NCBI GenBank assembly: GCA_051294375.1 | Contig: CM119269.1 | Coordinates: 394,910-458,909, forward strand | DNA: 64,000 bases | From: Paraspadella gotoi | Taxonomy: Eukaryota; Animalia; Chaetognatha | Direction of reading: 5' to 3' | Part shown: positions 2,074 through 61,351 of the stretch, in pieces | Position numbering within the stretch: position 1 is the first letter of the stretch | Layout: each line of letters starts with the position of its first letter | The notes under the pieces: generated by a model | What the model saw: only the letters and a program-made list of their open reading frames with translations | Told to the model about the DNA's origin: nothing | Database searches by the model: none | Program-made: the position numbers and the translations under genes

Positions 2074-2308
2074 TGAAAAAACATGATTATTGTTGTGTTA
2101 GTGACAGAACCGTTCAATATAAGCAGTCCCTGAGCTTTGGATCAGACTGACACTGTATCATCGAGTTACAGGCGGATTAAGTGCCCCGTCGCTCTTAACT
2201 GCTAGGCGACCACCGGGCTAGAACCCCGGACCTTGGGTAGGGAGGCGAATGACTTGCCTCCGGCGCCAATGGCCGCTGATGAACGGTTGATGATTTTAGT
2301 CCACCATA
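2074..2308 (-). mobile_element. tRNA-twister solo-LTR-like element, copy A (degenerate)
   Basis: Homologous to 35025-35258, 37656-37889 and 61144-61351. TG...CCATA ends on +, 4-bp TSD GTTT. tRNA-like head and twister core lie on -, with T1 and P3 mismatches. Confidence 0.85.
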
Positions 2309-4256: not shown

Positions 4257-7200
4257 GTATTGTCGTCGCTCTCGATCGAGTCGATCTTCCAGATGGCGTC
4301 GGCGATGGCGCGCCCATCGTCTCTCCGCCGTCGTCGTCGTCTTCATGCGGCGCCACCGAGGCCGGTCGCGCGTTGAGCGCCGCGTTGGCCTTCGCTTCTT
4401 CATCGACGTCGCCAGAGACATCCGCGTCGGCATCTGCGTCGGCATCGGCGGCGTCGGCGTATCCGCCCATTGAATAGGCCGAAGGAGGACCGACCTTGAG
4501 GAAAATAAAAGATAGAAAATATTGTTTAATTATTGTAAAAGATCCTCTTTTTCTCTTTCTCTTTCTCTTTCTCTCTCTCTCTCTCTCTGCTCGTTCTCGC
4601 TTCGCTGGTGTCAACGAGTTCGTATCTCCAATATTACTTATTATACTCATCTGAACCCATGATAAACTTTGATACTCAAACAAAAAATCAGATTTTATAC
4701 AGGAAAACTAAGTTTTAAATTAAAAATAAATAAATAAATAAAAAATGAATTGAATTAAATGAATTGAATGACATAAATTAAATGAATGAATTGTGGTGGT
4801 ATATTCACACCGCCTCACGTCCGTCATCCTTCAGCCAAATCCATTGGCTCAGAGGGGGAACACACCATCCCAAGCGTAGTGTTCCATCCACAGTCCTAAC
4901 GACTTCCCTCTGCGTTGGCAAAGCGAGACCGTCCTAGGGTAACCGCGCCAGTGACTGGAGGCGTCACTGAGGGTCGGAAGCCCCCAAAGCCAACAGTGAG
5001 ATGCCCCATCCCAATGGGCATCACAGGCAACCCGGCTGTTGCCATAAGTGGTGAGCCCTACTATCGAACACGCAACCTTCTCAGGGTACGCTACGACAAA
5101 CGCCTATGCCCTGCCGACTTCGGGTACGCTACGACAAACGCCTATGCCCTGGGGTACGCTACGACAAACGCCTATGCCCCACAACTCGCGCTCTCTCTCT
5201 CTCTCTCTCTCCACTATGGTAACAGTCTTGTCAGACACCTCTCAGGCTTGAGGAACCTGAGTGATGTCTTGGCCCGGGGATCCTGTGGTGGTATATTCAC
5301 ACCGCCTCACGTCCGTCATCCTTCAGCCAAATCCATTGGCTCAGAGGGGGAACACACCATCCCAAGCGTAGTGTTCCATCCACAGTCCTAACGACTTCCC
5401 TCTGCGTTGGCAAAGCGAGACCGTCCTAGGGTAACCGCGCCAGTGACTGGAGGCGTCACTGAGGGTCGGAAGCCCCAAAGCCAACAGTGAGATGCCCCAT
5501 CCCAATGGGCATCACAGGCAACCCGGCTGTTGCCATAGAATTTAATTTAAATTTTCAAGGAATAACAGTTTTTTAGTGTGTGACGACGAATTTTTATTTC
5601 ATAAGGACATGTTTCGACTCTGTGGTTGAGAGTCTTCATCAGCATTTGATTTAATCAACTCTCAACCACAGAGTCGAAACATGTCCCTATGAAATAAAAA
5701 TTCGTTGTCACACACTAAAAAACTGTTATTCCTTGAACTTAAACACAACGAAAAAGACAGAATCATAACAATTTAAATTTTAAAAAGACCTGCAGGTGAA
5801 CGCCCTACTCCTTCCTTCGTCCACCCATGACCTATCTCTTACCGATGGCGGGCCACCAATCGACTCCGGCGCTCCGATTGATTCGTCGCCAATCGACTCG
5901 GGCGGCCCGACAGAGGGCGGACCGACAGAGGGCGGGCCAATAGACATAGGAGCGGGGTAGTCTTCCATCTCTTCGTCGTCGTTGTCCGACTCCAACGCCT
6001 GCTCCTTCGCTGCTTGCTCCTGCGCTCTCGTTTCTGCTTCTCGGTTCTCTTCCTCGATTCTTTTCGCTTCCGCCCGTGACATACGCTTCTGCCTTTTGGC
6101 CGGGACTTCTCCGGCCGCCGGAATGGACGAATCCAGCGCGGACCCTTCCGGCACCGGCGCTTCGACGCCCGCAGCGCCGCCGCCCTCGCCCGAGCGGCGC
6201 CGCTCGTTCGTCGTTGGCAGAATCGAGGATTTTCGGCCGCGTTTGCCGCGACGCGTCGTGTCGAGGAGAGAGGACTCCCCGATTCTGATGAAGAATGATG
6301 GAGAAGAAATGCAAATGATAAAACTTTAATACTGATGCAGATTTCCTAATAATCGAGAGAATGATTAATAATGATTAATAATGATGGAGAAATAACTCAC
6401 CTTGACGATCCTCTCCCGCCAAGCGAGAATGACTCGCCTCCCCTCATAAGTTCCCGATCGTCAAAAGCGCCGATGTCCCCGAAGTCGTCGTCGCCCAATT
6501 GTTGAAATGAGGAAAAGTCTTCCTTCATTGTGATCTCCTCTGCTCGGGTCTGAAGGAAGGTTGGGGGAATAAATCAATAAATTAATAAATAAACAAATTA
6601 ATAAATAATTAAATATAAAAATAAATGAATTAATAACTCCTGTCTAGCTTTAGTTTTTCAGTGTGATCATTCATAGTTAAAATTACATTTGTTTTGCTAT
6701 TGAAAATAGTGAAACAAGTAATTTGAAAATTTTCATAAAAAGTAAAACGTTGTACCAATTTCATAACATTAGTAATTGTTTTCCCTTTGACCTTGCCCGA
6801 ATCGAATCCACAAAATTCATACTAATTTAAAATTAAATACAAATTAAAATTAATTATAAATAATTAATAGTTATTAACTATGAATCCGCCAGCTTCACCT
6901 GATTAAGAGTCAGCTGGCTTTGCACATCCAAGTCATTCAGATCCGTCAACGCCGTGTCAAAATCGTGAAAGTTCTCCGGCAAGGTGATGGCATTAAGCGC
7001 CGCCTCGCGATGATCCTCGGGCAAATCGACGACGCCAGGTCGAAACGCCATCTTGATCTTGACGAAAGCCTCATTGCAATCCGCCAAGAGATACTTGGCC
7101 TTACGAGAGTAGATGCGGACAACGCCTATGTGGGGAGGGGGCGCAGTTTCAGCATTTATAACCCAATAAGATTTCAAACTAATAGTCGTTTATGTTCTTT

Positions 7201-9251: not shown

Positions 9252-10455
9252 TTTTGTCACGTCGTCGTCGGCGTTCGTCAATCAAGATTTCAGATCCAGA
9301 TTTAGAAATTTCTTAATTTTTACTTTTCATCCATTTTTAAATCCTTTTTACATTATGACAGCTGACACTGGGGAAGAAAAAAAATTCATGATTCACTTGG
9401 TTTAAAACATTGAGGCGGTTTAAAGCCGTTACCTTATAACATATATGAGGCGACTTGTTTGTCTTGTCTTCTACACAGAAGAGTAGGAGTGTCAACTAAG
9501 ACAAACTTTATTTTAAATTGAAACAGCGCCTATTAAATTTGCTGATTTTTAGATTTTATGGTTACTATTAATTAATTTATGTATATTTTTGTTGATCTAA
9601 TCATTTTTTAAAAATTGCTTTTAAAATCCGTTTTATGTTAGGTTTCAGGCCTTCGTGCTTATAATTAAGATAAATTAACAAAGCAAAAGAAACATCAACG
9701 GCTTTGGAAAATGGCGATGAGCTGGTGTTCCCGCTAAGATTCATCCGCCGCCAGACTCTTCCTTTCGCGAAGAAAAGTAGATCCAAGAATTTTTTTAAGG
9801 ATTTCTGCCATAAAAAACTGTTATTTAAAACGAGAAAAACTTATATGTATTCTTTCAAACTATATCAATAATAGGTTCATTTTTTACTCTTAAGCATTTA
9901 TATTAGTTATTATGCATTTTTGTTGTTTAAAAGATATTGCGTGTTTGATCAGTTACGTATATTATTATCACAGCTAAGAAAAATATTACGTCTACCGTAT
10001 TGCTAATAGTCAGCATTTCGAGCTTAATTTCGGCAGAAGAAGAGCAGAACTGTGTTAAATTCATTGGCGTAAAGCTAAATCATACCAACCTGGAATCTAG
10101 GCTTAAACGATACGCTGGATGAAACGAGATGAGCAAGAATATTATATTGGTTGTACCAATTTCATATAAAAACTATAAATAAAAAAATATGAATAATTAT
10201 GATTTTAAACAATATCTCATAGAACCCTCTAATTAAAATTAAAAAAAGGTTTTCAAGTTTAAATTTAATAAAAACGGATGAAATTATTTCTTTTGTCAGT
10301 AATTTAAAGGACATCTGCCGTCAAAGAGCGATAACAAATTAAAATAAAAACTCATGTGATCATCTTAATTTCTGAAAACTGGTTGGACGATCAACTGTTA
10401 CAACAACAAAATGACTTTATTTTGTTAAGAGGATGTTTTTCGTCGATCTGCCATC

Positions 10456-12004
10456 ATGGGACATCGACACTCAAACTTATCCCCGCTCGAAAAAGAGATC
10501 GTTAAGGATAACATTCCCTCCACCGAGCGATACTATGGCCTTGTTAATTTCGGCAACACATGCTACTGCAACAGGTGATTCCTGCCCCTCCCATCTTTCT
10601 ACTCCTGGTATTGCATTGCAATTAACTCTCACTCCCATCATCTCAATTTCCTCGCAGTGTCCTTCAAGCCTTGTACTTCTGCCAACCATTCCGCGACCGA
10701 GTTCTCCAACACCGCGCCCATTCCAAGCGCAAGACCGAGACCCTCCTCTCCTGTTTGGGCGACCTCTTCCACAACATCTCCTCGCAGAAGAAACGAGTTG
10801 GTACCGTCGCACCGCGCAAATTCGTTTCGCGAGTGAAGAAGGAGGGGCCTTTCGACAACTTCACGCAGCAAGACGCCCACGAGTTCTTGAACTATCTGCT
10901 CAACAGCATGGCCGACTCTTTGGTCGCAGAAAAGACTGACAAGACGGAGCCTAATCCGACGACGACGACGACGAGAAGAAGACTTGGGACGTCTCCACCA
11001 TTCGTCAATCGGCCGACGGGTGCAGGTTCGGCGGCGGCGGCGGTGGCGGCGGCTGCTGCCTCTTCTTCAACCTCCAAGTCATGGATTCACGAACTCTTCG
11101 AAGGAACTCTTAGGAACGAGACGCGCTGCTTGAACTGCGAGACGGTCTCCAGCAAAGACGAAGATTTTCTCGATCTCTCCGTGGACGTTGAAGACAATTC
11201 GTCTCTGTCTCACTCGTTGAGAGTCTTCGCCAACACAGAGACTCTTTGCTCCGATCAAAAATACGACTGCGACGTTTGCCGATCGAAGCAGGAGGCACAG
11301 AAGAGGATGAGGATCAAAAGGGTGAGCGCAGTTTTATTCACAACAACAACAACGATCACAACGACAAACACCTAATTATGTTGACCTTAACTACAATATA
11401 GGCATATTTTACTAAATTTTATAATGATTACTATATATCAAGGAAGGGAAAATTTATTTTTTATTAGTAACATATTAATATTATTTTACTATTAAATTTA
11501 TAATTGTAGTATTAAATACTTCATTATCTTATTAGCATTATCGAAAAAATATATTTTCTATACTCTTCAGCTGCCCCGAATCTTGGCCTTACACCTAAAG
11601 CGCTTCAAATACTTGGACGACCTTCAACGCTACACCAAGCTGTCCCACCGCATGGCTTTCCCTGTCGAGCTTCGCCTGTCCCATTCGCCTGGCGAAACAG
11701 GCGACGATAACGACGAGCTGTTTGATCTTGTGGCCGTCGTTGTTCACTGCGGACCCGGGCCCAACAGGTCAGGACTAATCAATATCAATCAGTTAATTTT
11801 ACTTGATATAATTAAAATGTTTTATTTCCTTAAAGGGGTCACTACATTTCTCTAGTCAAGAGTCAAGGATTTTGGCTGCTATTCGACGACGACGTTGTGG
11901 AGCGAATCGACCCAGCGTCGCTCCAGCATTTTTTCGGGATTTCCTCCGAAGTCCAAAAACCCGCGGAAAGCGCCTACATTTTGTTTTATCAAGCCAGAGA
12001 TTAA
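10456..12004 (+). CDS. usp12/46: Ubiquitin-specific protease USP12/USP46. Exons 10456-10574, 10658-11321, 11571-11767, 11836-12004
   Basis: [13 protein letters not shown] Cys box, [16 protein letters not shown], His box [21 protein letters not shown]-terminal [10 protein letters not shown]. Confidence 0.95.
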
Positions 12005-12442: not shown

Positions 12443-13172
12443 ATGGTTCGCGTTTTAGTTTTTCTTTTCCTTTTGGGTAAGAATTTGAGAAAAGTTAAAT
12501 TAATAAGTTAAATAAATTGTACAACTAAATTGAAAAATTACTTGTGATAAATGATTGTAACTGATGACTTCTGTCTGTTATTCTGTAGGAACGACTTTTG
12601 CCCATGCTAATGGCTCCGAATACGGAATCAAGGATGTTTTGGAGAAATGTCTTAAGTTTTGTCCCAAGATCCATTCGCCAGTTTGCGATAACGAAGGCAT
12701 AACGCACAACAGTCAATGCGAATTTGAGATTCGCAAATGCGTTGCAAAAGAAACCAGCGGCAGAGATCTTCGCGTCGTTCATCCCGGAGTTTGTCTGGAC
12801 AAAAGAAGTGGAATAAAGCCCGTCTTAGAAAAGTGTCTCAAGTTTTGTCCCAAAATCATGGCTCCCGTTTGCGACAATGAAGGCATTACGCACTACAACA
12901 AATGTGAATTCGAAATCCGTCAATGTATCGCGAGAGAGACCAGCGGAAGAGAGATCAGATTGGTCCATCGCGGGGTCTGTTTGGACAAGAAGGGCATCAA
13001 GGACACGCTGGACAAATGCTTGAGAAATTGTCCAAAAGAAATGAGGCCGGTCTGTGACAACGAGGGAATTACCCACGCGAATCGATGCGTCTTTGAAATG
13101 AGACGATGCGTGAGAAGGGAAGAGACGGGAAATGAATTACGCGTCGTTAGAGATGGCGTGTGTCTCAACTGA
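12443..13172 (+). CDS. Secreted three-domain Kazal-type serine protease inhibitor. Exons 12443-12476 and 12589-13172
   Basis: Signal peptide MVRVLVFLFLLGTTFAHA spans a phase-1 intron. Three repeats of CxxxCPKxxxPVCDNEGITHxxxC...C...GVC. Confidence 0.92.
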
Positions 13173-24958: not shown

Positions 24959-32922
<7,964 letters not shown>

Positions 32923-34009: not shown

Positions 34010-37000
34010 TTATCCTTCTTGAATCAGAAAATCCAAGTTGATGTTGACCGCCTCGGTATGAGGTTTTCCAAGAAAACGGTTAAGCATCCGTTGCATGAAT
34101 CGTTGATACTTTTCGCTCTCCCCTGTAATAAAATCATTATTGTAAATTGGACTAATAAATAATACGACTAATATTACCAATGTTTGACATACATTGAATT
34201 AAACTTTTAAAGACACTTTTTAAAAATTTGGAAACGCGTATAGTTTTTTTTTTTAAGTTCTGTCTAAAACAACCTTGTTTAATATTTAATCTAGAATAAG
34301 TAAAATGACAATTTTTAAAATTTAAATAATTCCGCCTCAGAATCCCAAGCGCCCTCTATCGGCTGACCTTGCAAGACCCAATAGTCTTCGTCGTCAAAGA
34401 CTCTTGTCTCGTCTGGTCTTTCCCAAATCGGGAGACGCAAGATCAAACCGGTGATGGCGCCACCAATGATTGCAATGGCCAATGTGACCACGATGGCCTC
34501 GAACTGACGACCCGCTTGTTGAGATCCGCTTAAACTGGAAACGGAAAAAAAATATAAACACTACGACAACGATAACCAATCATTAAATAATAAAATAAAT
34601 AATTACAAACGTTAACATAAAAAAAACATATTTTACATTAAATGTTTTTCAAATTTTTAATTTTTATATGTTTTTTTTTTAACCCAAATTTAACAGAAAA
34701 GTAATCATAAAATATACCTACCCCAATCCAAATTTTTTAACATCCAGCAAACAATTATATTCGTTCATGGCAGGATTCATTGCAGGGTAAGTAACCATGG
34801 TAACCTCACTGTTTGGATACCAGTGAGCGAATGCGGGAAAGATACCGCTGGCGATACCGCCCATAAGACCAGCCAATCCTTAAACGTTTGGGAATTTAAT
34901 ATATTATTAGGTCTAGAAGGAGATGATAATTATCTATGTTGTAAAAATTATTACATCCTTACTCTTGGATGTTCCAAAAAAATTTTTCAATGCATTTTTA
35001 AAATGAATTAAATTAATCAACTATTATGGTGGATGAAAATCCACCAACCATTCATCAGCGTCCATTGGTACCGGAGGCAAATCATTCGCCTCCCAACCCA
35101 AAGGTCCGGGGTTCTCGCCCGGTGGTCGTCTGGCAGTTAAGAGGGACGGGGTGCTTAACCCGCCTGTAACACAGTGTTACAGCCTGATCCGAAGCTCAGG
35201 GACTGCTTATATTGAACGGTTCTGTCACTAACACATAACAATAATTACTGTCTCTTCACTATTTGATTTTCTAATAAATAAATATTTTAAATTGTTTTTC
35301 AATTATTTTCATTCTGGTCGTTGGTCCTACGTTAGAAACGAAAAAAAATTTAAACACTTAAATAAGCACTTATCAAAAATAATATTTTATCACTATATCT
35401 TTATTTATTATCACCGTGTAGACTGTGAACTCCTCTAGAATCGTGAATTTTCAAGAATTTCCTCATGAGAGGAACGAAATATTCTTGCGCATGCGCAGTC
35501 GTCATTCCCGCCAAAACTCCGATCAAGATGGCTGCCCAAGGCGCGATGTAGGCATTGGCGAGGGCGCCCATTGCCACGCCTCCTGCCAGGCAAGCTTCTT
35601 GCACGTGGAACATGTCCAGTTCACCGAAGCCACTGAGGAATTGGGACATTGCGATGGAACCAATTGCGGAACCGGCGATGCTCCATCGGGTGTTGGCCAA
35701 AGCGACAGTCTGATCCGATCCTGGGATTGATCGATAGATTGATCGATCGTAAATAATTGATTATTTAAATATTAAAGATTTGATTTAGTGTTTTTTTTTT
35801 TACGACATCTTAAGTGTTTAGGATTGTTTTGAGTGTATTATGTTTTGGAAACACTCAATTTGAGTTACCAGAATGTTTCAATTTTATTTTATTTTGTGGA
35901 ATTTTTCTTCGTGAGCCTATTATGAAGCTTATACAATATACAATATACAACTATTATAAAAACCACGAAACTATCCCCGTACCAAGAAAGGAATAAGCAC
36001 CAAGAGAGTTTGACTTCCATATAAAGAAAAAGATATGTATAAATCGTATGTTACAATTTTTTATGTTCATAATTTAATATTAAGTATTTATATCCCTTTC
36101 TGATATTATTTACCTGTCAAATTTCTTGCATTGAACGAAGGCCACATCGCCCAGAGAAACGCCATTCCCAACAAAGCAAATGAGTTGGATTCTTTAGACG
36201 ATTTGTATTTCATATTCCCGCGCAAATATCTCTTATACAAAAGGCGAGAGACAGACAGACCAAAATAAGCGCCAAAGACGTGGACGAGAATGGATCCGCC
36301 TTCGTCAACCGCGGCGAGGTGATGCTGACAGACATAGGCGTTGATCGAGTAGAGAATGATCTCAATTATGCCCATCGCTGTCAGCTGTGATGACAAAGGG
36401 AATGAAGCAAAAAGAGAATGGAAAAATTAAGAAGAAAGGGAAGATATCTTTGTGATTTGATTTAATGATTATGACAAACCCTGTCAACTGGGATATTAAA
36501 TATGAAAGAACGGTGGCCATTAGATTTTTGTCAAAACTGTAGTTTGTATCTTTTCCTTGTTATGTGAGATTTGGTTATAAAGTAGCAGAGTTTTTATTTG
36601 TATTAAACAACGAGTTTTTCAAAATATTTGGACATGTTTCGGTCCTGGATTCAGACCTTAGTCAGCGCATTTGACAAATTTGAGATTGTCAAGATTGTCA
36701 AATTTGTCAAATGAGCTGACGAAGGTCTGAATCAAGGACCGAAACATGTCCAAATATGAAATGACATTTCTCGCACACACTCCATCACAGACCTGCAACG
36801 GCGACACGACGCCCAAAACTGCGCCGTAGCTGATCAAAACAGCAAAGACTCCGGCGTCGGCGTCGATCAAAGTCTTCAAAGTCAATTTGACGGAATTTCT
36901 ATCTTTTTCTAAAACCGGAATCGTTTCCACTCTCTTCTCTGGGGAGGGGGGAGGCAATCAATAAATCAATCAATCAATCGGTCGAAAATTCAATTGGCTA

Positions 37001-38853
37001 ATTATTTACTTTATGAATCCAACTGCCATACAATAAAAATCTCATCGTTGAATATAGTTTATCAATCAACGATTAACTTAAGTCAATTAAGTCAATAAAT
37101 TACTCAGTTAATGACTAAATAGCTAAATCACTAATTCAATCAATCAATCTCATTAAATGTGAGAGACAAAACAATCGGTCAGCCTTCCACTAAATACCTC
37201 TGATTTGAAAGAGCTTGAAGTAATTATTTCCACTAGCTCCACCTAGTTGCACCCGAAGATTTTCGTCTAGAGCGTCTCCATTTTTTAAGGCGACGCTTTG
37301 AATGTTGTTCACGAAAAGACTTTGCAAGGCGCGAGACTTGGCCGTGTCCCCTCGAACCAGGATCAGGTCAACGTCCGTTTTGTTCAACCAATGTTCGTTC
37401 AACTGCATCGTCGTTCGTGACGTCAGATGGAATTTGTCAGAATCTTTAAGGGGAGCAGGAAGTTAGGGATGGGGAGTTTTAAGGGGAGAAGGAAGTTAGG
37501 GATGGGGAGTTTTAAGGGGAGAAGGAAGTTAGGGATGGGGAGTTTTAATATATATATATAACTAATATAATAATTAACGGAAAAGTTTTGGAAAGATAAA
37601 TATATTGTCGCCAATATCAATGATACTGAATCTAAACTCATAAAAAGATTGAAATTGAAGAGACAGTGATAATTGTTATGTGTTAATGACAGAACCGTTC
37701 AATATAAGCAGTCCCTGAGCTTCGGATCAGGCTGTAACACCGTGTTACAAGCGGGTTAAGCGCCCCGTCCCTCTTAACTGCCAGACGACCACCGGGCTAG
37801 AACCCCGGACCTTTGGGTTGGGAGGCGAATGACTTGCCTCCGGCACCAATGGCCGCTGATAAACGGTTGGTGGATTTTAGTCCACCATAAAATTATCTTT
37901 TGACGAATGATTCTCCAAATGGAGAGACCGGAAAGACCGACCAAAATAGTCAATATTATTTTAGTATAATTAACCAATGATTTTGATTAAAGGAATTTTA
38001 ATCAAAAGATTTAATTTATTAAGTTTTCATAAACGGTTAATGAGCAAATCTTAATTAATTTTTGACTGGTGTTCATTTGTTTTTCCTTCTCACCGACTGT
38101 GGCGCATTTGGTCGTCGACTGATTCCAGTACAACCATCCGTTGACCAGTAGATGAATCTGTGCGCAGAGAACGACCACGTAGAGAGTGTAGCCTGACCCG
38201 CAGTGGGTGAGTCGTTCCAGGAACGTGTAGAGGAACCCGATCCCAAAAACGACCATCACGTGAACATCCTGGCCGATAGCGATAGCGATAGCGATAGCCA
38301 ATTAGAATTTTGAACAATAATCATCAAAAACAACTACATTTATACTACATCATTGGTGCTTGCTGCTAAGCTGCTTAGCCTACATCATTGTTTGCTGCAA
38401 AGCCAACATCGTTGTTACTTGCTAAAAAAAATCAAATCACAGTATTGGTTACTGCAAGGCCAACCACAGTATTGGTTGCTGCATAGCCAACCACAGTATT
38501 GGTTGCTGCATAGCCATCCACAGTATTGGCTGCTGCAAGGCCAACCACAGTATTGGTTGCTACAAGGCCAACCACAGTATTAGTTGCTGCAATTCCATCA
38601 TCACCGTTACTTGCTACAAGGCTCTCATAGATTTCACACTTTTATTATCACATCTCACCTGAAATTTAACATATTGAATGTGAGAAATGGTTTTGTCTTT
38701 TCCAGAGTCAATTTCCGGTGGGGAATCGGAGCCCTTCGCGTCGTCGTCATATTCGACTAAAGTTCCGAACAAAATAATGAAGACGATTTGAGTAGTTAAG
38801 TAAAATTTGGAAAAACTTTTGTAATGCCAAATTCGGCGTAAAATCTGGAACAT
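34010..38853 (-). CDS. Rh-family ammonium transporter, divergent paralog. Exons approx. 38853-38659, 38268-38094, 37443-37198, 36938-36793, 36384-36114, 35720-35415, 34878-34722, 34535-34369, 34122-34010
   Basis: [84 protein letters not shown]. Confidence 0.9.
35025..35258 (+). mobile_element. tRNA-twister solo-LTR-like element, copy B
   Basis: TATGG...TTCA ends, 4-bp TSD CTAT, tRNA-like head 35058-35129, twister 35133-35206. Confidence 0.9.
35133..35206 (+). ncRNA. Twister ribozyme, type P5
   Basis: P5 gcagtt/gactgc; gagg GA CGG; ggtgct; TAA ccc GC; P3 ctgtaaca/tgttacag; P4 cctga/tcagg; L4 tccgAAGC (CCG pairs with CGG). Predicted cut at 35156/35157. Confidence 0.78.
36624..36757. mobile_element. 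Inverted pair of Penelope-type minimal hammerheads
   Basis: Plus 36716-36750 CTGACGA-A-GGTC-tgaatcaag-GACC-GAAAC-ATGTC. The inverted copy on - has CTGACtA. Confidence 0.78.
37445..37548. repeat. 33-bp tandem repeat, 3 copies, including the acceptor end of an intron
   Basis: tttaaggggagaaggaagttagggatggggagt units. Confidence 0.85.
37656..37889 (-). mobile_element. tRNA-twister solo-LTR-like element, copy C (twister 37708-37781 on -)
   Basis: TG...CCATA on +, 4-bp TSD AAAT, intact twister core with P1 region ggcgct. Confidence 0.9.
38436..38592. repeat. 27-bp intronic minisatellite
   Basis: ccacagtattggttgctgcaaggccaa units; source of the QPQYWLLH ORF. Confidence 0.85.
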
Positions 38854-51304: not shown

Positions 51305-51730
51305 ATTAGGGTTAGGGAGGGTTAGGGTTTTAGGGTTATGGGTTAGGTTAGGTTTAGGTTAGGTTAGGGTTAGGGTTTAGTTAGGGTTAGGGTTAGGGGT
51401 AGTTAGGGGGGAGAGAGATGGTTTAAGTGGTTAAGCGGTTAAGGGTAGTTAGGTGTAATAGGCGTTATAGTGCGTTAGGCGTGATAGAAGGTGTAGGTGT
51501 TGTTAGGTTAGGGCTTTAGGCGTTTTTAGGTGTTAGTCTAGGTTACGGCGGTTGAGTTAGTTAGGGTTATGTCTGTCGTGTAGTGCGGTGTAGGGTTTAG
51601 GGTTAGGGTTCAGGGTTAGCGGTTAGGTGCTGTAACGGTGTAGCGTTAGGGTTAAGGTAAGGGTTAGGTTAGGGTTTAGGTTTTATGGGGTGTAGGGTTT
51701 AGGGTTAGCGGTTAGGGTTTAGGGTAGGGT
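51305..51730 (+). repeat. Degenerate interstitial telomere-like (TTAGGG)n tract
   Basis: Many ttaggg, ttagg and tttaggg units. Confidence 0.85.
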
Positions 51731-52813
51731 TGCGGCCTACGCGCTTTGATATCGCTTAACGCAACTTCCTAAGCGACGCCTTTAAAAATTTTCCCAAAAT
51801 TTTTTTTTAAAAAAAATAAGATTTTGAAAAATTTTAATCCAGTGAGATATTTCAAGATGATCCTGGCAAAGGGGAGAACGATCTAACATAGACAACAAGA
51901 AGAGATTCATCCTTCGACTCAGGGTGCAAGCGTCAAGCCTAAGCTATCGGCCAACCAGGCTGGCCTGCAAATCCCGGTTATTATTATCCTTTTTAAAACT
52001 TTTAATTTAGACTTTCGAAGCCTTTGTTGTTTGTTTTGATTCAGCTAAACAAAAAAACCAGGAGTCTTACCGCCTTTTCAATCATATGTTGTTTAACTGT
52101 TTTTCTCAGAGAAAACAAAACGTTTTGATTCAGTTGCTTGTTTTCGAATCTGAATAAATAAACAAGTCAAACTTTTATTCACTTGTTTTACTTCTTCTCA
52201 ACCATGTAATAAACTACATTTTTGAAACTAGAAATAAAGTTTTTATCTTAGCTGAATTGAATATCTCTCTTCTAAAATGAATCACCTCTAACAAACAGAC
52301 AGAGAAAAATCCCATTTATCCCTGTAAAAATCTCTAGGAACTGGAGAGAAGAAAATGAGAAGAACGAATGACGAATAGTATACCAGCAGAATAAAGTAAA
52401 CCAACTTTATCTATCGTAATTTCCACGCTCGTTATTCAACTTTGATCCCTTAGCTCTCTTTACAATGCTTTAATAATTCTCGTAATACGTATCTAGGTTT
52501 CAGAGCTACGTTAAAGGAATGCTAACGCTTATCTTTAGTGAGCCCACACTCATTGTCGGCGCCATCCTCGTGGCGTATCAACGCCACTCGGAGCCACGCC
52601 ACACTTGGTGAAACCGACGCAGGACAGAACCAACCTTCGAGAGCGGGAGACAACGGATTAAATCACCTCCTCAGGTAGGACTGGGTGAGAATTGAAGGGT
52701 ATTAAAGCGACCCACCCATCCGCTGACACCCTTTCTCCCTTTTTCTCTTTCGGTGAAACAACTATTGGAGTCAATAGCGTCAACGAAGCGAAGCAAACGA
52801 AACGTCAGCCCTA

Positions 52814-53917
52814 ATGAGCAACCCGGACCTGCGCTCACGCCTCCGTTCCGCCCAGCGCGCCACAGAGGAGCAGCCAGATCCGCCGTCGACCCTCCAAATC
52901 CCCATAGGCTTTGGACGAGGCACACGCTCACGCTCGACGTCGCCAATCTTCATCGACGCCGCCCCAGAATTCAATTTCAGGCAAATTAGCAGCGAAAACT
53001 TCGAGGACGCCGATATGGCCACTGGAGGCGACGCTCAAAGGGATAATCTCCGCGATGAGAACGAGGAGCTGCGCGCCGCCCTCGCCGCCGCCACCAGAGC
53101 CCTCGAACGAGCTTCTAATAGAAAACCGGATCTTCCTGAGTTTGATACAACGAACATAGAGATCTGGATCAAGCGCGTTGAAGCCGCTTATACACGTGCC
53201 GGCATTACAGCGCCCAAATCTAAATTTGCTCACTTAGAGTCCAAAATTGGCGTGAATGTCGATCCAAAGGTGAATCAGTTTCTCTACGGGGAAACCTCAG
53301 AGCAATCATGGCAGTCTTTTCTCGATTATCTCCGCCGAGAGTATGGCCTCACTCGACGACAACAGGCCGTCCACATGCTAGACGCCTTCGACGTCGACGG
53401 GATGAAGCCATCTAAAATGCTCGCTCGACTTGAGGAAAAAACAAAAACGGTAACGCTGGATGACATTCGAAAGGAAAAAATCCTTAGAGAGTTACCCACA
53501 GAGATTCGTAGGCAGCTGGAGGACAAAGCTGACGATCTTTCAGCGAATGAACTGTGCGAGATCGCCGATCGTCACTTCGACAATGAAGGTAACATCAAAA
53601 TAAAGGCGAACTCAGCTCTCATCAACAACGTCGAAGTAGGCCGACGAGGACGGCGCGAATCATCGTCGTCATCAGATAGCGACGCCGCCGACCTCGTCAA
53701 CGCCGTCAGCGCCGGCAGACAGAAAAACTTCAACGCCAAGAAAAAGAAAAGCCAAGGTCAAGCTACAAAGAGTAAGGCAAAGCCAAAATTACTCACGTTA
53801 TGTCACAAGCACGCGAAATTTGGTGACGACGCGTGGTCTTGTGAACCCGGGTGTTCCAAGTTCGACGACCTGCAGCGCAAACGAGAGGGAAACGCCAGAG
53901 GGGGGCGCCGTCGGTGA
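52814..53917 (+). CDS. gag: Gag
   Basis: PDLPEFDTTNIEIWIKRVEA capsid-like start and C-terminal CHKHAKFGDDAWSCEPGC zinc motif. Confidence 0.9.
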   Translation: MSNPDLRSRLRSAQRATEEQPDPPSTLQIPIGFGRGTRSRSTSPIFIDAAPEFNFRQISSENFEDADMATGGDAQRDNLRDENEELRAALAAATRALERASNRKPDLPEFDTTNIEIWIKRVEAAYTRAGITAPKSKFAHLESKIGVNVDPKVNQFLYGETSEQSWQSFLDYLRREYGLTRRQQAVHMLDAFDVDGMKPSKMLARLEEKTKTVTLDDIRKEKILRELPTEIRRQLEDKADDLSANELCEIADRHFDNEGNIKIKANSALINNVEVGRRGRRESSSSSDSDAADLVNAVSAGRQKNFNAKKKKSQGQATKSKAKPKLLTLCHKHAKFGDDAWSCEPGCSKFDDLQRKREGNARGGRRR

Positions 53918-56900
53918 ACGCCGTCCCCCAAGCCACGCGATCACCGGCGCCTTCGGACCTACTCTACATTCGAGACTCAGGGGACAGGACGAAGTGGCTA
54001 GTAGACGGCGGCGCCCTCCTCTCGATCGTCCCTCCAACAAAAGAGCAACGACAAGGCGGACCTGATCCTAAGCTGAAACTTCAGGCGGCAAACGGCTCGC
54101 CAATCAGTTGTTTTGGGACAATCGATAAGGAAGTGCAACTTGGAAATCGAAAATTCAATTATCAATTCGTTATTGCTGATGTGAAACAACACATATTGGG
54201 CGCAGACTTTCTGGCGGAAAATTTTCTGGCGCCCAATCACAGAGACGGCTTATTACTCGACTTAAGAGATTATTCTACTATCGCGGCGTCGACGGCTTCA
54301 ACCGCGTCAGAGACGACGGCCCACGTGAATTTCGTCGATCGCCAAGGCGAAAAATATTATAAGCTTCTGGACGCTTTTCCTTCATTGTCGACTCCAACTT
54401 TCGAATTAAAGGAGCCAAGGCATGGGGTCACGCACTCCATCCCGACAGAAGGAAGACCTTGTCAGTCAAGAGCGCGCCGCCTCGACGCTGAGAAATTAGC
54501 GGTGGCAAAAAAGGAGCTTGAAAAGATGGTCTCTCTCGGGATAGCCCAGCGCGGCAAATCGGAATGGTCGTCTCCGTTACATGTCGTTTCAAAACCGGAT
54601 GGAGGATGGCGCTGTTGTGGCGACTATAGGCGCCTGAATTCTCAAACAATTGACGACAAATATCCGGTTAAGTTATTAACGGATTTTAACGCGCAATTGG
54701 AAGGGAAAACCATTTTCTCAAAGATAGACCTATTAAAAGGCTATCATCAGATCCCGGTTAACCCTGATGATGTCAAGAAGACTGCAGTTATAACCCCTTT
54801 CGGGTTATATGTCTTTCCCCGATGTCCCTTTGGTCTTAAAAACGCAGGACAAGATTTCCAGCGTTTGATGGACCAAATACTCGGGGATATACCCCATACG
54901 TTTGTATATCTGGACGATATACTGGTGGCATCGTCAACACCAGAAGAGCACCTCCAGGACCTCGAGAATGTCTTCAGAGCACTCGACGCCAATGGCTTGG
55001 TGGTAAACACCAAAAAATGCTTGCTAGGCCAAGAGTCACTGGAATTTCTGGGATTCTTGGTGGACAAGAACGGAGTAAGACCACTACCAGAGCGAGTTCA
55101 AACGCTACGTGAGACCACGAGGCCTACAACAATAAAGGAGCTACAGCGATTCCTGGGAATGATAAACTACTATCGACGCTTCATTCCCAGGGTCGCCCAC
55201 CGGTGCTCAGCTCTATACGAAGCCCTCAGCGGTAAACCCAAGGCGCTAGAATGGACACCAGAGTGCGAGAAAGCTTTCGAGGCCATCAAGGAGGGCCTGA
55301 TCCAAGCTGCGTTACTACATCATCCAAGGACAGGCGCACAACTATGCATCACTACCGACGCCTCCGACCAGGCAGTTGGAGCAGTGCTAGAACAACGTGG
55401 TCCGAAGGGTTGGGAGCCTCTGGCGTTTTTTTCGACCAAGCTCGCCAAGAACCAGAAGCTATGGCCCCCCTTCGACAAAGAGCTATTCGGAGCATTCAAG
55501 GCAGTGAGACATTTTAGGCACTGGGTTGAGGGACGCGCGTTTACTATATATACGGATCATCAAAGCTTAGTATCGGCGATCAAAAAGAAGGCGGAACCGC
55601 AGACGGTCCGCCAATCCTACCAACTCTCCGTTATCGCCGAATACACGACCGATATCCGCTACCTAAAGGGCAAAGCGAACGTCGTAGCCGACGCCCTTTC
55701 GAGGCCGAACGCAACGACAGAAAAAACGGCGTCAAAAACGGCATCGACAGCGCAGAAAACTACATCGCCAGCAGCAGCGGCAGCGCCAGCAGCAGCAGCG
55801 GCAGCGTCAGCGCCAGCAGCAGCAGCAGACGCAGCAGCAGCTCATATATCAACAATCGATTCAACATCGTCACCAACAGCGACGCCAACTCAGCCATTAA
55901 ACTCATCAATCGAATCAGCTCAGGCGACAGAGATCCCGTTAGGCCCCACAACTCTAAATTCGAACGATAGGCAAATAAAAGCAAATCGTCTCGAAGACGC
56001 ACGGGCAATGATCGCCTCGATGACAAGCTATGAAATTGATTTTGAGCAAATGGCGAGTGAACAGTCACTAGACCCAGATTATCAGAGAATAGCTGAGGAC
56101 GCAAGATCGGGATTGACATTCAGGAAAATCAGAGTGGGCGACCGGGATCTCTTAGCGGACATATCAAACGGACCCGCTCGACCTTTCGTACCTCTATCAT
56201 GGCGGCGAAAAGTATTCGATATAATTCATGGACTCGGTCACCCCGGCGTCGAGGCAACGCGCAAGGCCATCACCTCTAAGTTTGTATGGACAAACATGAA
56301 ACAAGACATCTCTAAATGGGCGCGAGATTGCCTCGATTGCCAGAGAGCCAAAATCACAAGACACACAGTGCCTGAAATAGGCGAATTTCGAATTCCGCCT
56401 AAACGATTTCAGCATATAAATCTTGACCTGGTAAAAATGCCGAGCTCGAATGGATTTTCACACTTACTAACAGTAGTGGATCGATTTTCTAGATGGCCAA
56501 CGGCCATCCCAATTGTGAATACGTTAACGTCAACAATCTTAGACGCCCTCAGCCTGGAATGGATAAGTGTATTTGGGACACCAGCGATAATCACGACCGA
56601 CAGAGGGACTCAGTTTAATTCAGCTCTGTGGCGACAGTTAACTAAACAATGGGGAATTAAACACCAGACCACAACCGCTTACCATCCTCAAGCGAACGGC
56701 CTTGTAGAGCGCTTTCACAGGCGCTTGAAGGAGTCATTAATGGCCCTCGCTAGAGAAAACAAAGAACAATGGTTCTGGAAACTCCCGATGACGCTACTCG
56801 CCATAAGGACGACTATAAAAGAAGATATCGGCGCCTCCGCCGCCGACATGGTCTTCGGCGAAGGAATTAGTGTACCAGGATGTGTAGTCGACAACGCCCA

Positions 56901-57744
56901 GATCGACGACGAGGCGCTGCAAAGGCGACGCCAAACTCAATTAGCAAGCCTAAGGGTGGAAATAGCTCGACTACAACCAACTCCAACATCCGCTCATCAT
57001 CGACCGAACATCCATCTTCCCGCCAACCTGGAGACCGCCCAACACGTCTTCGTCAGAAGGGCCGGAGTCCATCCGCCTCTTGTGCCTCCATATGAAGGAC
57101 CTTATAGAGTCGTGAATCGAAACGGTCTAAACTTCACAATCGAAATCCCAAGCAAAGGACGAGAGATAATCAACGTCGCCCGCGTCAAACCGGCGTGGAC
57201 GAGCGACGAGGCGTTGGAGATCGAAACAGGGCATCCTCAGCGACGTCAACCAGGACGCCAGCCAGGCCTGAGGACGAGAGAAGCACCTACTTCAACTCGA
57301 GTTACCCGCTCATCGAATCAACGCGCAGCGTCGCCAGATCCGATCGTTTCTCCTACTCCTCCTCCTCCTCCTCCTCCTCCTCCCCCTCCTCCTCCTCCTC
57401 TGTCCCCTCCCCAACTGCCCCACCTTCCCCCCAACCCTCCCATGCCCGCTCAACGCTTTTTGCTCCCATCTTCTCCCTCCTTTTCGCTTCCACGCAAGAC
57501 GAGTCCGCCACATCGAAGCGAAAGAGAAGATAACAACAACAACAACAACGAAATCCAGCAAAATGAGCCAACGACGGAACGATTCTCAAGGCCATCTCCC
57601 GGCGACTTCTCGAGTAGACTACCGAATAAAAATCGCCCAGCCTACGCCGTCGTACTAAAGGAAATGTTACTTAGACAAAAAACACAAAACAATAACAACA
57701 ACAACAAACCGACAAAAAACAATAAAACCCCACTGTCGGCCTAA
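53851..57744 (+). CDS. pol: Pol (protease, RT, RNase H, integrase)
   Basis: LVDGGA protease, FSKIDLLKGYHQI and YLDD RT, TDAS RNase H, HxxxH...CxxC and DRG...NGLVE integrase, PYEGPY module; Gypsy domain order. Confidence 0.96.
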   Translation: MFQVRRPAAQTRGKRQRGAPSVNAVPQATRSPAPSDLLYIRDSGDRTKWLVDGGALLSIVPPTKEQRQGGPDPKLKLQAANGSPISCFGTIDKEVQLGNRKFNYQFVIADVKQHILGADFLAENFLAPNHRDGLLLDLRDYSTIAASTASTASETTAHVNFVDRQGEKYYKLLDAFPSLSTPTFELKEPRHGVTHSIPTEGRPCQSRARRLDAEKLAVAKKELEKMVSLGIAQRGKSEWSSPLHVVSKPDGGWRCCGDYRRLNSQTIDDKYPVKLLTDFNAQLEGKTIFSKIDLLKGYHQIPVNPDDVKKTAVITPFGLYVFPRCPFGLKNAGQDFQRLMDQILGDIPHTFVYLDDILVASSTPEEHLQDLENVFRALDANGLVVNTKKCLLGQESLEFLGFLVDKNGVRPLPERVQTLRETTRPTTIKELQRFLGMINYYRRFIPRVAHRCSALYEALSGKPKALEWTPECEKAFEAIKEGLIQAALLHHPRTGAQLCITTDASDQAVGAVLEQRGPKGWEPLAFFSTKLAKNQKLWPPFDKELFGAFKAVRHFRHWVEGRAFTIYTDHQSLVSAIKKKAEPQTVRQSYQLSVIAEYTTDIRYLKGKANVVADALSRPNATTEKTASKTASTAQKTTSPAAAAAPAAAAAASAPAAAADAAAAHISTIDSTSSPTATPTQPLNSSIESAQATEIPLGPTTLNSNDRQIKANRLEDARAMIASMTSYEIDFEQMASEQSLDPDYQRIAEDARSGLTFRKIRVGDRDLLADISNGPARPFVPLSWRRKVFDIIHGLGHPGVEATRKAITSKFVWTNMKQDISKWARDCLDCQRAKITRHTVPEIGEFRIPPKRFQHINLDLVKMPSSNGFSHLLTVVDRFSRWPTAIPIVNTLTSTILDALSLEWISVFGTPAIITTDRGTQFNSALWRQLTKQWGIKHQTTTAYHPQANGLVERFHRRLKESLMALARENKEQWFWKLPMTLLAIRTTIKEDIGASAADMVFGEGISVPGCVVDNAQIDDEALQRRRQTQLASLRVEIARLQPTPTSAHHRPNIHLPANLETAQHVFVRRAGVHPPLVPPYEGPYRVVNRNGLNFTIEIPSKGREIINVARVKPAWTSDEALEIETGHPQRRQPGRQPGLRTREAPTSTRVTRSSNQRAASPDPIVSPTPPPPPPPPPPPPPPLSPPQLPHLPPNPPMPAQRFLLPSSPSFSLPRKTSPPHRSEREDNNNNNNEIQQNEPTTERFSRPSPGDFSSRLPNKNRPAYAVVLKEMLLRQKTQNNNNNNKPTKNNKTPLSA
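53887..53946 (+). promoter_or_regulatory. Putative -1 ribosomal frameshift signal
   Basis: G GGA AAC heptamer in the gag phase (53887-53893), a short spacer, stem gggg-ggcg/cgcc-gt-cccc, and loop cggtga complementary to tcaccg at 53941-53946. pol is in the -1 frame. Confidence 0.75.
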
Positions 57745-59181
57745 TTGGCAGCCGAAGCCTCTTCCTCCGAGCGTCCACGGTCTTCCTCCCGCCAGCTTCG
57801 ACTGCCAATGTACAAATTACCCACGAAGATTAGTAAATTTTTTCAATTTTAGTAGTTTTTGCAATTTATGATTGTTATGGATTTGTTGTTATGGAAACGA
57901 GCGAGATGGAAATATTTTACAACCTGTTTAAACCGGTCTTTTTGCGACCTAAATTTTGTATATAGAGATATATATTGATTTTAATTTTTCAACATTCGTT
58001 CAGTCACACAGATGGACGACAACAAATATTTGTAGTAATGTAAATACCTTATATTACGACAGGGGGGGATGCGGCCAATGAGTGAGATATTTCAAATTAG
58101 AACAAACTCAATCCAACCGGGATTCGATCCTTCGACTCAGGGTTCTGGCAAGCGTCAAGCCTAAGCTATCGGCCAACCAGGCCGGCCTGCAAATCCCGGT
58201 TTATTATTATCCTTTAAAACTTAATTTAGATTCGAAGCCTTTGTTTTGTTTTGATTCAGCTAACAAAAACCAGGAGTCTTACCGCCTTTTCAATCATATG
58301 TTTTTAACTGTTTTCCTCAGAGAAAACAAAACGTTTTGATTCAGTCTTGTTTTCGAATCTGAATAAATAAACAATGTCAAACTTTTATTCACTTGTTTTT
58401 TACTTCTTCTCAACAATGTAAATACTACATTATGAAACTGAGAAATAAAGTTTTTATCTTCAATGAATTAATCTCAATTCTAAAATGAATCAATTCAACA
58501 TCGAATGAATTAATCTCTGATGAACAAACGAAGTAAACAAATAAAGTAAACAAACTTTTATCTTCGAAGTCACGTNNNNNNNNNNNNNNNNNNNNNNNNN
58601 NNNNNNNNNNNNNNNNNNNNNNNNNNNNNNNNNNNNNNNNNNNNNNNNNNNNNNNNNNNNNNNNNNNNNNNNNNNCACGAGGTCTCGTGTTCCTTCCCAG
58701 GCTCCACGTTGATGACATTTTCACTATATTTAACAAGTGTAGAAAGAATTTTATTAATGATCTATTTGTCAAAAAACACTGTACTCAAAGGAATAGTTTT
58801 TTTTCTACTATTTAATTAATTATTCTATTTTTTTGGGGGGGGTTTCTAGACCTAGTCCTGATTGATGTTAATGACTGAATCAACCATGTTGAATTCGAAA
58901 TAAAATGCATATTTTAGTTTGATTTAAAATTAAATTTGTTATTAAGTTTAATAATTAGGTTTAAGGTGAGTAATAAAGTTTAGGTTAAGGATTAGAATTA
59001 GAGATTAGAGTTAAAGTTGGATTAAAGTTTTTGTTTTAAATTAGAGTTAGTGATTAGATTAGGTTTTGGAAATAGGTTTAAAAATTAAATAAAATATTTT
59101 TTTCAATTATGTTTTAATATTAAATTTAAGAACAGAAATGAGGCGCTTTTTAAAAATAATGCCATTATTTTTTTTTTTTTT

Positions 59182-61143: not shown

Positions 61144-61351
61144 TATGGTGGACTAAAATCCACCAACTGTTCGTCAGCGGCCATTGGTGCCGGAGGCAAG
61201 TCATTAACCCAAAGGTCCGGGGTTCTAGCCCGGTGGTCGTCTGGCAGTTAACACGCCTGTAACATGGTGTTACAGCCTGATCCGAAGCTCAGGGACTGCT
61301 TATATTGAACGGTTCTGTCACTAACACATAATAATAATTACTGTCTCTTCA
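61144..61351 (+). mobile_element. tRNA-twister solo-LTR-like element, copy D (internally deleted)
   Basis: 4-bp TSD ATCT. Lacks the segment between two TTAA (catalytic GA, T1', P1) and part of the anticodon arm. Confidence 0.9.

What the first reader, a model, noticed from the sequence alone, without database searches (positions are those of the whole stretch)
35025..35258. Second family: tRNA-Gly-like head fused to a twister, inserted with integrase-type 4-bp TSDs
Seen: four copies (2074-2308, 35025-35258, 37656-37889, 61144-61351), each with exact TG...CCATA ends, a different 4-bp TSD (GTTT, CTAT, AAAT, ATCT) and no poly-A tail. Inside are a tRNA-like fold (acceptor gcggcca/tggtcgt, A-box-like tggtgccggagg, CCC anticodon-like loop, T arm ccggg-gttctag-cccgg) and, a few nt later, a type-P5 twister. 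A 9-bp inverted repeat (aaccgttca/tgaacggtt) encloses both. It looks like a SINE but has solo-LTR ends. Inference: a Pol III-driven, self-cleaving cassette in the LTR of a TRIM, combining features of Cassandra (5S in LTRs) and schistosome Sm-alpha (tRNA SINE plus hammerhead).
Basis: partly seen in the sequence, partly recalled or inferred. Interest (0 to 1): 0.9.

Follow-up and report, generated by a model that had tools for sequence, protein, structure and literature searches.

The report
Animal twister retrozyme with tRNA promoter
This 234-base repeat, found four times in the window and at many other sites in this invertebrate's genome, is likely the leftover end-piece (solo LTR) of a tiny protein-less jumping gene; it carries a tRNA-derived stretch (a likely promoter) followed by a predicted self-cutting twister RNA, a pairing that would extend the plant-type circular "retrozymes" to animals.

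Summary
In detail: four copies, 90-95% identical, with shared ends, exact 4-bp TSDs and no poly-A. Corrections: two copies lie on the minus strand; in the sense of the tRNA and twister the ends read TATGG...CTTCA; the 9-bp inverted repeat is perfect in one copy only. The head keeps tRNA landmarks in register (19 of 22 in the best copy; 0 of 1000 shuffles) but is no tRNA gene. The twister has both pseudoknots and the catalytic bases, an irregular P2 and almost no P1; Rfam misses it, and only 2 of 4 copies are intact. Public contigs show a very abundant family with sharp ends. No two-LTR copy of this family was seen, but a sister family in the window has two LTRs, a PBS, A/B boxes and a P5 twister. 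tRNA-in-LTR TRIMs are known (Helenus, 2024); ribozyme-in-LTR elements are known from plants (retrozymes). I found no paper joining the two, although two published wasp Helenus LTRs carry an unremarked hammerhead at the same place. Verdict: new variant of a known kind, likely a Pol III-driven animal LTR retrozyme. Cleavage, transcription and circles are untested.

The parts
35025..35258 (+). Copy 2 (flagged): 234-bp solo-LTR-like unit, ends TATGG...CTTCA
   Evidence: sharp family ends in public contigs
35021..35024 (+). Left 4-bp target-site duplication (CTAT)
35259..35262 (+). Right 4-bp target-site duplication (CTAT)
35027..35046 (+). 5' terminal hairpin (predicted); the sister family has a like hairpin at the same place
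35046..35054 (+). 5' arm of the enclosing inverted repeat (8 of 9 pairs in this copy)
35058..35130 (+). tRNA-derived head, 73 nt: acceptor-like stem, A box 35066-35077, CCC at the anticodon place 35092-35094, B box 35111-35119; D and anticodon arms not kept as in a tRNA
   Evidence: 18 of 22 landmarks here, 19 of 22 in copy 3, 0 of 1000 shuffles reach 19; no ARAGORN or Rfam call
35133..35206 (+). Type-P5 twister-like fold: P5 35133-37/35202-06, GA 35145-46, T1 35147-49/35189-91, predicted cut 35156/35157, bulged 3-bp P2, T2 35162-63/35194-95, P3 35164-82, P4 35183-87/35196-200
   Evidence: not detected by Rfam; cleavage untested
35213..35221 (+). 3' arm of the enclosing inverted repeat
2074..2308 (-). 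Copy 1, most diverged, TSD GTTT; T1 and P2 mismatched, 6-nt insertion in P3
37656..37889 (-). Copy 3, TSD AAAT; tRNA landmarks 19 of 22, twister core intact (predicted cut after 37758)
61144..61351 (+). Copy 4, TSD ATCT; 8-nt deletion in the head and 18-nt deletion in the twister core
4792..5537 (+). Sister family ('family 1'): two LTRs 4792-5046 and 5284-5537 (99.6% identical), TSD GAAT, PBS-like TGGTGA at 5049, A box 8 of 8 and B box 7 of 8 in each LTR, P5 twister 4914-4994, predicted cuts after 4940 and 5432 (492-nt unit)
51731..58575 (+). Gypsy LTR retrotransposon with CHCC gag motif, PBS-like TGGTGA at 52606, PPT 58061-58069, LTR ends read as TGCGG...CCACA; candidate helper lineage (inferred); 3' end lost in an N gap

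Best explanation
The four copies are likely solo LTRs of a non-coding miniature LTR retrotransposon (Helenus-type TRIM) that would work as a Pol III retrozyme: the tRNA-derived head likely drives transcription, and the twister fold is predicted to cut the RNA once in each LTR. Shown: the repeat, its fixed ends, 4-bp TSDs, the tRNA landmarks, the twister landmarks, and a sister family with the same layout in two-LTR form. [quoted passage not shown] A solo copy would be a dead end, because the cut removes its own promoter from the RNA.
For: 4 of 4 exact 4-bp TSDs and shared ends. Depth falls from 1e4-1e6 inside to about 40-215 or less outside both ends; 190, 201, 82 and 48 contigs in 4 of 4 runs (3 studies) leave the element at 35258 into unrelated AT-rich flanks with no poly-A. 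tRNA landmarks in exact register; population variants at 35126 and 35129 turn G-U into G-C in the acceptor-like stem. The descriptor finds 4 twister hits in the window, all in this family or the sister LTRs; 0 of 3000 element shuffles and 2 of 40 window shuffles (one hit each) score. Between the two families the unpaired core is the same while P3, P4 and P5 differ in sequence and still pair, and the middle T1 pair changes on both sides. PMC11662667 reports that flaws in P1, P2 and P4 are tolerated and that the pseudoknots and catalytic bases, intact here, are what matter. The sister family is collinear (4 of 300 shuffles reach its score), multi-copy with an internal region, has the same flank bias (CTAT/ATAT against ATAG/CTAT) and a contig of a second organism bridges its internal region into an LTR start. 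TA...CA LTR ends occur in wasp Helenus. Two wasp Helenus LTRs with a tRNA-Trp PBS hold a hammerhead at the same place, by eye.
Against: No two-LTR copy, PBS or PPT of this family was seen: 0 of 4 copies have TGG just downstream, no genome was available, and no row shown links this LTR to the sister's internal region. Rfam gives no twister or tRNA hit for this family at E<=10. P2 has 3 pairs round a bulge, P1 is at most one pair, P4 closes with A-U; the pseudoknot-free twister scaffold is 9.5 kcal/mol less stable than a fold in which a 4-bp hairpin blocks T1, P2 and T2 (9.4 for the sister). 0 of 64 predicted pairs show a two-sided change among the four copies. 2 of 4 copies have a damaged twister. 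The descriptor was written after seeing the sequence. The lack of T4 runs is not significant (0 seen, 0.6 and 0.95 expected). The A box departs from the TRGCY motif of most Helenus, and homology to the sister family is only moderate by sequence. The sister's PPT is weak.
Confidence: 0.55

Rival explanations
1. Ordinary Helenus-type solo LTR in which the twister is a real homolog but a dead or blocked passenger; the element replicates through a linear RNA with an R region.
For: Irregular P1, P2 and P4 and the more stable competing hairpin; no Rfam hit; 2 of 4 copies damaged; most Helenus consensus LTRs that I read show no ribozyme.
Against: All catalytic and pseudoknot bases are kept in copies 2 and 3 and in both sister LTRs with a two-sided T1 change; the common non-CpG variants listed fall in the P3 loop, the head and the tail, not in the core (40 rows shown); a hammerhead at the same place in wasp Helenus suggests selection for cleavage.
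Confidence: 0.22
2. A retrozyme driven by Pol II or by read-through from neighbouring genes; the tRNA-like head is a relic or acts only as an RNA structure (for example a site for tRNA-processing enzymes or for packaging).
For: A14 and R57 are not kept, the flagged copy also differs at A58; the acceptor-like stem is kept at RNA level, which a DNA promoter does not need; Pol III use is unproven for Helenus too.
Against: A and B boxes sit at the exact tRNA spacing and the sister family keeps an 8 of 8 A box and a 7 of 8 B box while its head folds differently.
Confidence: 0.12
3. A one-unit element with no two-LTR parent: the 234-bp unit is itself copied and inserted by a Gypsy integrase, primed in some other way.
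For: 4 of 4 copies are single units; no internal region of this family was found.
Against: A cut at 35156 would part the head from the tail, so one unit cannot template a full copy (the same logic is given for schistosome SINEs in PMC6765202); solo-to-full ratios above 100 are reported for TRIMs; one contig in 2 of 4 runs goes from 35237 back to 35025, a possible two-unit locus.
Confidence: 0.08
4. A tRNA-derived SINE inserted by target-primed reverse transcription.
For: tRNA-derived head near the 5' end; very high abundance.
Against: Constant 4-bp TSD, CA 3' end, no poly-A or simple-repeat tail, 33 nt upstream of the head, sharp ends in many contigs.
Confidence: 0.03

Closest known systems
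Helenus (TRIMp3), Kojima 2024, PMC10886601; nearest members Helenus-2_SyJa and Helenus-2_SyUm
   Same: Short non-coding LTR with a tRNA-derived A/B-box stretch that is not a working tRNA; 4-bp TSD in animals; Gypsy helper; many solo LTRs; some LTRs end TA...CA; the two wasp members have a tRNA-Trp PBS, start TGTGG and, by my reading, carry a ribozyme just 3' of the tRNA-like part.
   Different: Here the ribozyme is a P5 twister; the paper mentions no ribozyme in any Helenus (0 'twister', 0 'self-cleav', 'ribozyme' only in a reference title); no T run follows the head, whereas most Helenus LTRs that I read have one; the two-LTR form of this family is not shown.
Plant LTR retrozymes, Cervera et al. 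2016, PMC4918200
   Same: Self-cleaving ribozyme inside the LTR, 4-bp TSD with sequence bias, solo LTRs, Gypsy helper; the circle model fits.
   Different: Type III hammerhead, tRNA-Met PBS, 300-400-bp LTRs, plants; no Pol III cassette mentioned (0 hits for 'polymerase III'). Animal retrozymes are described as lacking LTR, PBS and PPT.
Type-P5 twister ribozyme (Roth et al. 2014, not read; layout from PMC8501958 Table 1 and PMC11662667)
   Same: GA + T1 strand, U^AA, GC (T2), P3, P4 with U-NNN-AAGC loop, ends in P5.
   Different: 3-bp bulged P2, P1 nearly absent, 5-bp P4; no Rfam match; the known retroelement link is to the non-LTR Perere-3, not to an LTR.
Schistosome Sm-alpha SINE with hammerhead (as summarised in PMC6765202) and Cassandra (as summarised in PMC10886601)
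   Same: Pol III promoter upstream of a ribozyme, so single copies are dead ends (Sm-alpha); Pol III cassette in an LTR (Cassandra).
   Different: Sm-alpha is a tandem non-LTR element with a hammerhead; Cassandra has 5S and no ribozyme is reported there in what I read.

Membership tests
Helenus (TRIMp3) | tRNA-derived sequence with A and B boxes inside the LTR | tested here: met
   19 of 22 landmarks in register in copy 3, 18 in copy 2, 0 of 1000 shuffles (landmark list recalled); GGTTC present; A box reads TGGYG, not TRGCY
Helenus (TRIMp3) | 4-bp TSD (animal members) | tested here: met
   4 of 4 copies
Helenus (TRIMp3) | Two LTRs enclosing PBS and PPT | tested here: inconclusive
   Not seen for this family (no genome). 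Two LTRs and PBS seen in the sister family, PPT weak
Helenus (TRIMp3) | Short and non-coding | tested here: met
   208-235 bp; sister element 746 bp
Helenus (TRIMp3) | PBS shared with an autonomous Gypsy | tested here: inconclusive
   Sister PBS and the window's Gypsy PBS both begin TGGTGA and match 11 and 12 of 14 bases of the tRNA-Trp PBS in the paper's Fig. S2 (counted by eye); this family's PBS unknown
Helenus (TRIMp3) | Pol III transcription | not testable with these tools
   Unproven for Helenus itself
LTR retrozyme (plant type) | Type III hammerhead in each LTR | tested here: not met
   No CUGANGA...GAAA core on either strand of copies 2, 3 or the sister element; twister-like fold instead
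LTR retrozyme (plant type) | Unit-length circular RNA between the two cut sites | not testable with these tools
   Only contigs were served
Type-P5 twister | Catalytic G and A, U^AA, both pseudoknots (T1, T2), L4 U-NNN-AAGC | tested here: met
   Copies 2 and 3; not copies 1 and 4
Type-P5 twister | 4-bp P2 and a P1 stem | tested here: not met
   3 pairs round a bulged A; P1 at most one pair; such flaws are reported as tolerated
Type-P5 twister | Match to the Rfam twister models | tested here: not met
   No hit at E<=10; the sister gives a weak twister-P1 hit, 15.2 bits, E 1.6
Type-P5 twister | Site-specific self-cleavage | not testable with these tools
   Needs an in vitro assay
tRNA-derived SINE | Variable-length TSD, A-rich or repeat tail, start at the head | tested here: not met
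Functional tRNA gene | Cloverleaf with D, anticodon and T arms | tested here: not met
   ARAGORN 0 genes; Rfam none; anticodon stem does not pair in register (by eye)

The most novel reading that the evidence does not exclude
Animals harbour a class of Pol III retrozymes: Helenus-type TRIMs tied to tRNA-Trp-primed (CsRn1-like) Gypsy helpers, in which a tRNA-derived promoter is followed by an exchangeable self-cleaving ribozyme (twister in two families here, type III hammerhead in two wasp families) that replaces terminator and R region and yields abundant small circular RNAs; this would be the first described use of a twister in an LTR retrotransposon.
Probability: 0.45. Interest if true: 0.78.

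Novelty: new variant of a known kind. Interest (0 to 1): 0.64.

Why it matters
Most genomic twister ribozymes have no known job, LTR retrozymes are thought to be a plant feature, and it is not known how Pol III-type TRIMs define the ends of their RNA. If this reading is right, it gives a twister a defined role in LTR retrotransposition, extends LTR retrozymes and their circles to animals, and offers a natural swap (twister against hammerhead at one place in one layout) that can be tested with a simple cleavage assay and RT-PCR. A very abundant solo LTR would also be a large source of tRNA-like small RNAs with cyclic-phosphate ends.

Tried and rejected
No whole genome is held, so the genome-wide search for paired copies could not be run. 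Rfam at gathering level: 0 hits in the window; at E<=10 on four stretches of this family: only unrelated chance hits. No RNA holder listed; run X9 is only guessed to be RNA. An exact 23-mer found 0 loci in metagenome contigs. Relaxed twister patterns gave 37 and 8 viral, 13 metagenome and 10 genome loci: 0 of the 37 passed the descriptor; of the other 31, 26 were re-matched by my script, none with P4 above 3 pairs or a twister-like context, 5 were not re-matched; 0 of 68 gave a BLAST hit at E<=0.01 to either family. So no outside homologs and no real covariation test. Laying contigs on the sister's LTR and internal region showed no tail of this family before its PBS, but only 19 of 555 loose-end rows and 15 of 72 joints were shown and 5177-5290 was skipped as repeat. 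In one search, 24 of 663 loose-end rows and 15 of 51 joints were shown. Flanks without cover in runs X5 and X9 say nothing on insertion polymorphism. An alternative twister register (cut at 35167/35168) was rejected by eye because P2 and T1 fail. DNA transposons with 4-bp TSDs were rejected because the ends are not inverted repeats (recalled criterion). A GUUAAG/CUUAAC stem over the cut site has pairing probability 0.0. Two coordinate slips in scripts (inverted repeat, sister P5) were corrected. Look-ups of earlier findings by sequence and place were blank; 0 findings held both 'Helenus' and 'ribozyme'.

Full report
Observation. BLAST of the flagged stretch against the window gives four full-length copies and nothing else of length: 2074-2308 (-), 35025-35258 (+), 37656-37889 (-), 61144-61351 (+). 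They are 90-95% identical. Each has an exact 4-bp duplication, and no other length from 2 to 8 fits; the joint chance is about 1e-10. In the sense of the head and the twister the ends are TATGG...CTTCA, so 'TG...CCATA' is the antisense reading. TA...CA ends occur in published wasp Helenus LTRs (Helenus-3_TheEle, -2_EuAn, -1_MeDo, -3_MeDo). The 9-bp inverted repeat is perfect in copy 1 only; it pairs with high probability in copies 1, 3 and 4 and about 0.4 in the flagged copy. Copy 3 folds better than 196 of 200 shuffles (z -2.4), and its other strand does about as well, so that number alone says little.

Abundance and ends. No genome was held. Eleven public runs hold the stretch or part of it. 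Laid on 4 of them (3 studies), summed contig depth is 1e4-1e6 inside and about 40-215 or less outside; at 35057 the ratio to the flank is about 2,800 in two runs, which the tool warns is no copy number. At 35258, 190, 201, 82 and 48 contigs leave into unrelated AT-rich flanks (agreement 0.40-0.45) with no poly-A; at the 5' end 15 and 5 contigs leave at 35025 and 6 at 35022. Only 24 of 663 loose-end rows were shown, so internal truncations are not excluded. The flank consensus begins ATAG in 3 of 4 runs, and 40 and 37 contigs share CTAT plus, which points to a target bias. The host is an invertebrate animal.

The head. With textbook tRNA numbering (recalled) and T8 at 35066, landmarks fall in register with no gap: G18 G19, A21, U33, CCC at the anticodon place, A37, G53 T54 T55 C56, C61. 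Copy 3 keeps 19 of 22, the best score on either strand of the window; the flagged copy keeps 18, the second best; 0 of 1000 shuffles reach 19. A14, R24 and R57 are not kept, and the flagged copy differs from copies 3 and 4 at A58. 'Gly' rests only on the CCC loop and my recall of tRNA-Gly. It is no tRNA gene: ARAGORN and Rfam give nothing. The acceptor-like stem pairs with probability 0.99 in copy 3, the T-arm hairpin only 0.04; variants at 35126 and 35129 change G-U to G-C in that stem.

The twister. Against the layout in PMC8501958 Table 1, 35133-35206 has P5, the GA with T1 strand, U^AA at 35156/35157, T2, P3, P4 and the loop UCCGAAGC; T1 has 3 of 3 and T2 2 of 2 pairs. My descriptor hits four places in the window: copies 2 and 3 and both LTRs of the sister family; 0 of 3000 element shuffles and 2 of 40 window shuffles score. 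It was written after I saw the sequence and allows a 3-nt P2. Against: Rfam finds no twister here at E<=10; P2 has three pairs round a bulge, P1 is almost absent, and the nested twister scaffold is 9.5 kcal/mol above a fold whose 4-bp hairpin blocks T1, P2 and T2 (pseudoknot energy not counted); 0 of 64 pairs covary among four close copies; copies 1 and 4 are damaged. For: PMC11662667 found P1, P2 and P4 flaws tolerated and pseudoknot or catalytic changes harmful; and the sister twister has the same core with different paired stems and a two-sided change in T1, although n is 2. I put activity of intact copies at about 0.65.

The sister family. 4792-5537 has two LTRs 99.6% identical, TSD GAAT, ends TGTGG...CCATA, a PBS-like TGGTGA two bases after the 5' LTR, a weak PPT, an 8 of 8 A box, a 7 of 8 B box and a P5 twister. 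Its LTR aligns collinearly with this family (score 93; 4 of 300 shuffles reach it; the antisense strand 30 of 300). Contigs show it as very abundant, with solo LTRs whose flanks begin CTAT or ATAT and with a multi-copy internal region; one contig of organism B bridges internal region and LTR start. The two predicted cuts enclose 492 nt. This shows the layout in full form in this genome, but not for the flagged family, whose two-LTR copy I did not find; the one hint is a contig running from 35237 back to 35025 in 2 of 4 runs.

Helper. A Gypsy at 51731-58575 has RT, RNase H and integrase, the CHCC gag motif and a tRNA-Trp-like PBS; PMC2582038 names CHCC, tRNA-Trp PBS and 4-bp TSD as marks of the CsRn1 clade. 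Its LTR ends (TGCGG...CCACA) and PBS start resemble the sister's. No tree was built, and the link is inference.

Mechanism. Following the retrozyme model of PMC4918200, two ribozymes cut out a unit RNA without R region, the RNA is circularised, and a Gypsy RT makes solo, full or multimeric cDNAs. Here a tRNA-derived internal promoter upstream of the cut would supply the transcript; no run of four T lies in copies 2-4 or the sister element and one lies 9-15 nt into the flank in four of five cases (75 nt for copy 1), but the absence is not significant. As in schistosome SINEs, a single unit loses its promoter on cutting, so solo copies would be dead ends. Steps shown: structure and ends. Steps inferred: transcription, cleavage, circle, helper.

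Comparison and novelty. Helenus (PMC10886601) already covers tRNA-in-LTR TRIMs with 4-bp TSDs, Gypsy helpers and solo LTRs in six animal phyla. Its main text has no twister or self-cleavage, and four short twister-loop motifs in its supplement gave 13 places, none in a twister context by eye (line breaks can hide motifs). But Helenus-2_SyJa and -2_SyUm (277-bp LTRs, 4-bp TSD, tRNA-Trp PBS) carry by eye a type III hammerhead just 3' of the tRNA-like part; 2 of 5 places with that core motif have this context. A 2020 review hints at insect elements with type III hammerheads as unpublished. Reviews describe LTR retrozymes as mainly plant and animal retrozymes as non-LTR. Ten searches of the open library listed no paper on a twister in an LTR or a ribozyme in Helenus; subscription papers and Repbase reports are not covered. 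So: it works like a retrozyme, fails membership of plant retrozymes (no hammerhead), and is a probable but not proven Helenus (two-LTR form untested).

What I saw of each paper. PMC10886601: parts 1-4 and 6 of 6 of the text, supplement parts 1 and 5-9 of 11, three supplement searches. PMC4918200: passages and Discussion. PMC8501958: passages and one Results section. PMC11662667: abstract, passages, one section. PMC7761336, PMC2582038, PMC6765202, PMC12859917, PMC13570524 and bioRxiv 10.64898/2026.07.22.740005: passages only (the preprint's supplements not seen). Roth 2014, the Cassandra and Sm-alpha papers: not read, known from these reviews or recalled. Earlier AI findings report P5 twisters missed by Rfam in Penelope-like elements and Helenus in a worm; unchecked leads, not used as support.

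Verdict. Real feature; new variant of a known kind; whole mechanism 0.55; interest 0.64.

Noticed in passing
window 4792-5537 (+): Sister two-LTR element with A/B boxes, P5 twister and PBS; very abundant, with solo LTRs and an internal region whose summed depth is 0.07-0.39 of the LTR's in 3 runs (not a copy number); a relative occurs in organism B. It is the better object for experiments.
   Followed up: yes
PMC10886601 supplement, Helenus-2_SyJa-LTR and Helenus-2_SyUm-LTR: A complete type III hammerhead by eye (GUC site, CUGAUGA and GAAA core, three stems, complementary loops 1 and 2) just 3' of the tRNA-like part; the paper does not mention it. Not folded by a tool.
   Followed up: partly
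window 51731-58575 (+) and 51306-51731: Gypsy element with CHCC gag motif, long pol ORF (RT, RNase H, integrase) and LTRs about 89.5% identical, directly after degenerate TTAGGG repeats.
   Followed up: partly
window about 5554-5738: Long fold-back (arms of about 85 bp) just 3' of the sister element, MITE-like; seen by eye.
   Followed up: no
joint 35237 to 35025; loose end before 35133 in run X2: One contig in each of 2 runs goes from the tail back to the start of the element (tandem or two-LTR locus); 11 contigs suggest a diverged subfamily with a different head.
   Followed up: no
window 8409-9281 (-), 10626-11372 (+), 12561-13169 (+), 28983-29615 (-): Host genes or exons: mitochondrial carrier, ubiquitin hydrolase, three Kazal domains, C2H2 zinc finger. 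The carrier's best named relatives are invertebrate animals (70% to Owenia; unnamed ones 76-78%).
   Followed up: partly
PMC10886601 supplement, fish Helenus (LTR-11_DR group): The short internal region is complementary over about 13 bases to a conserved LTR stretch in the consensus sequences of part 5 (by eye): a possible RNA pairing.
   Followed up: no
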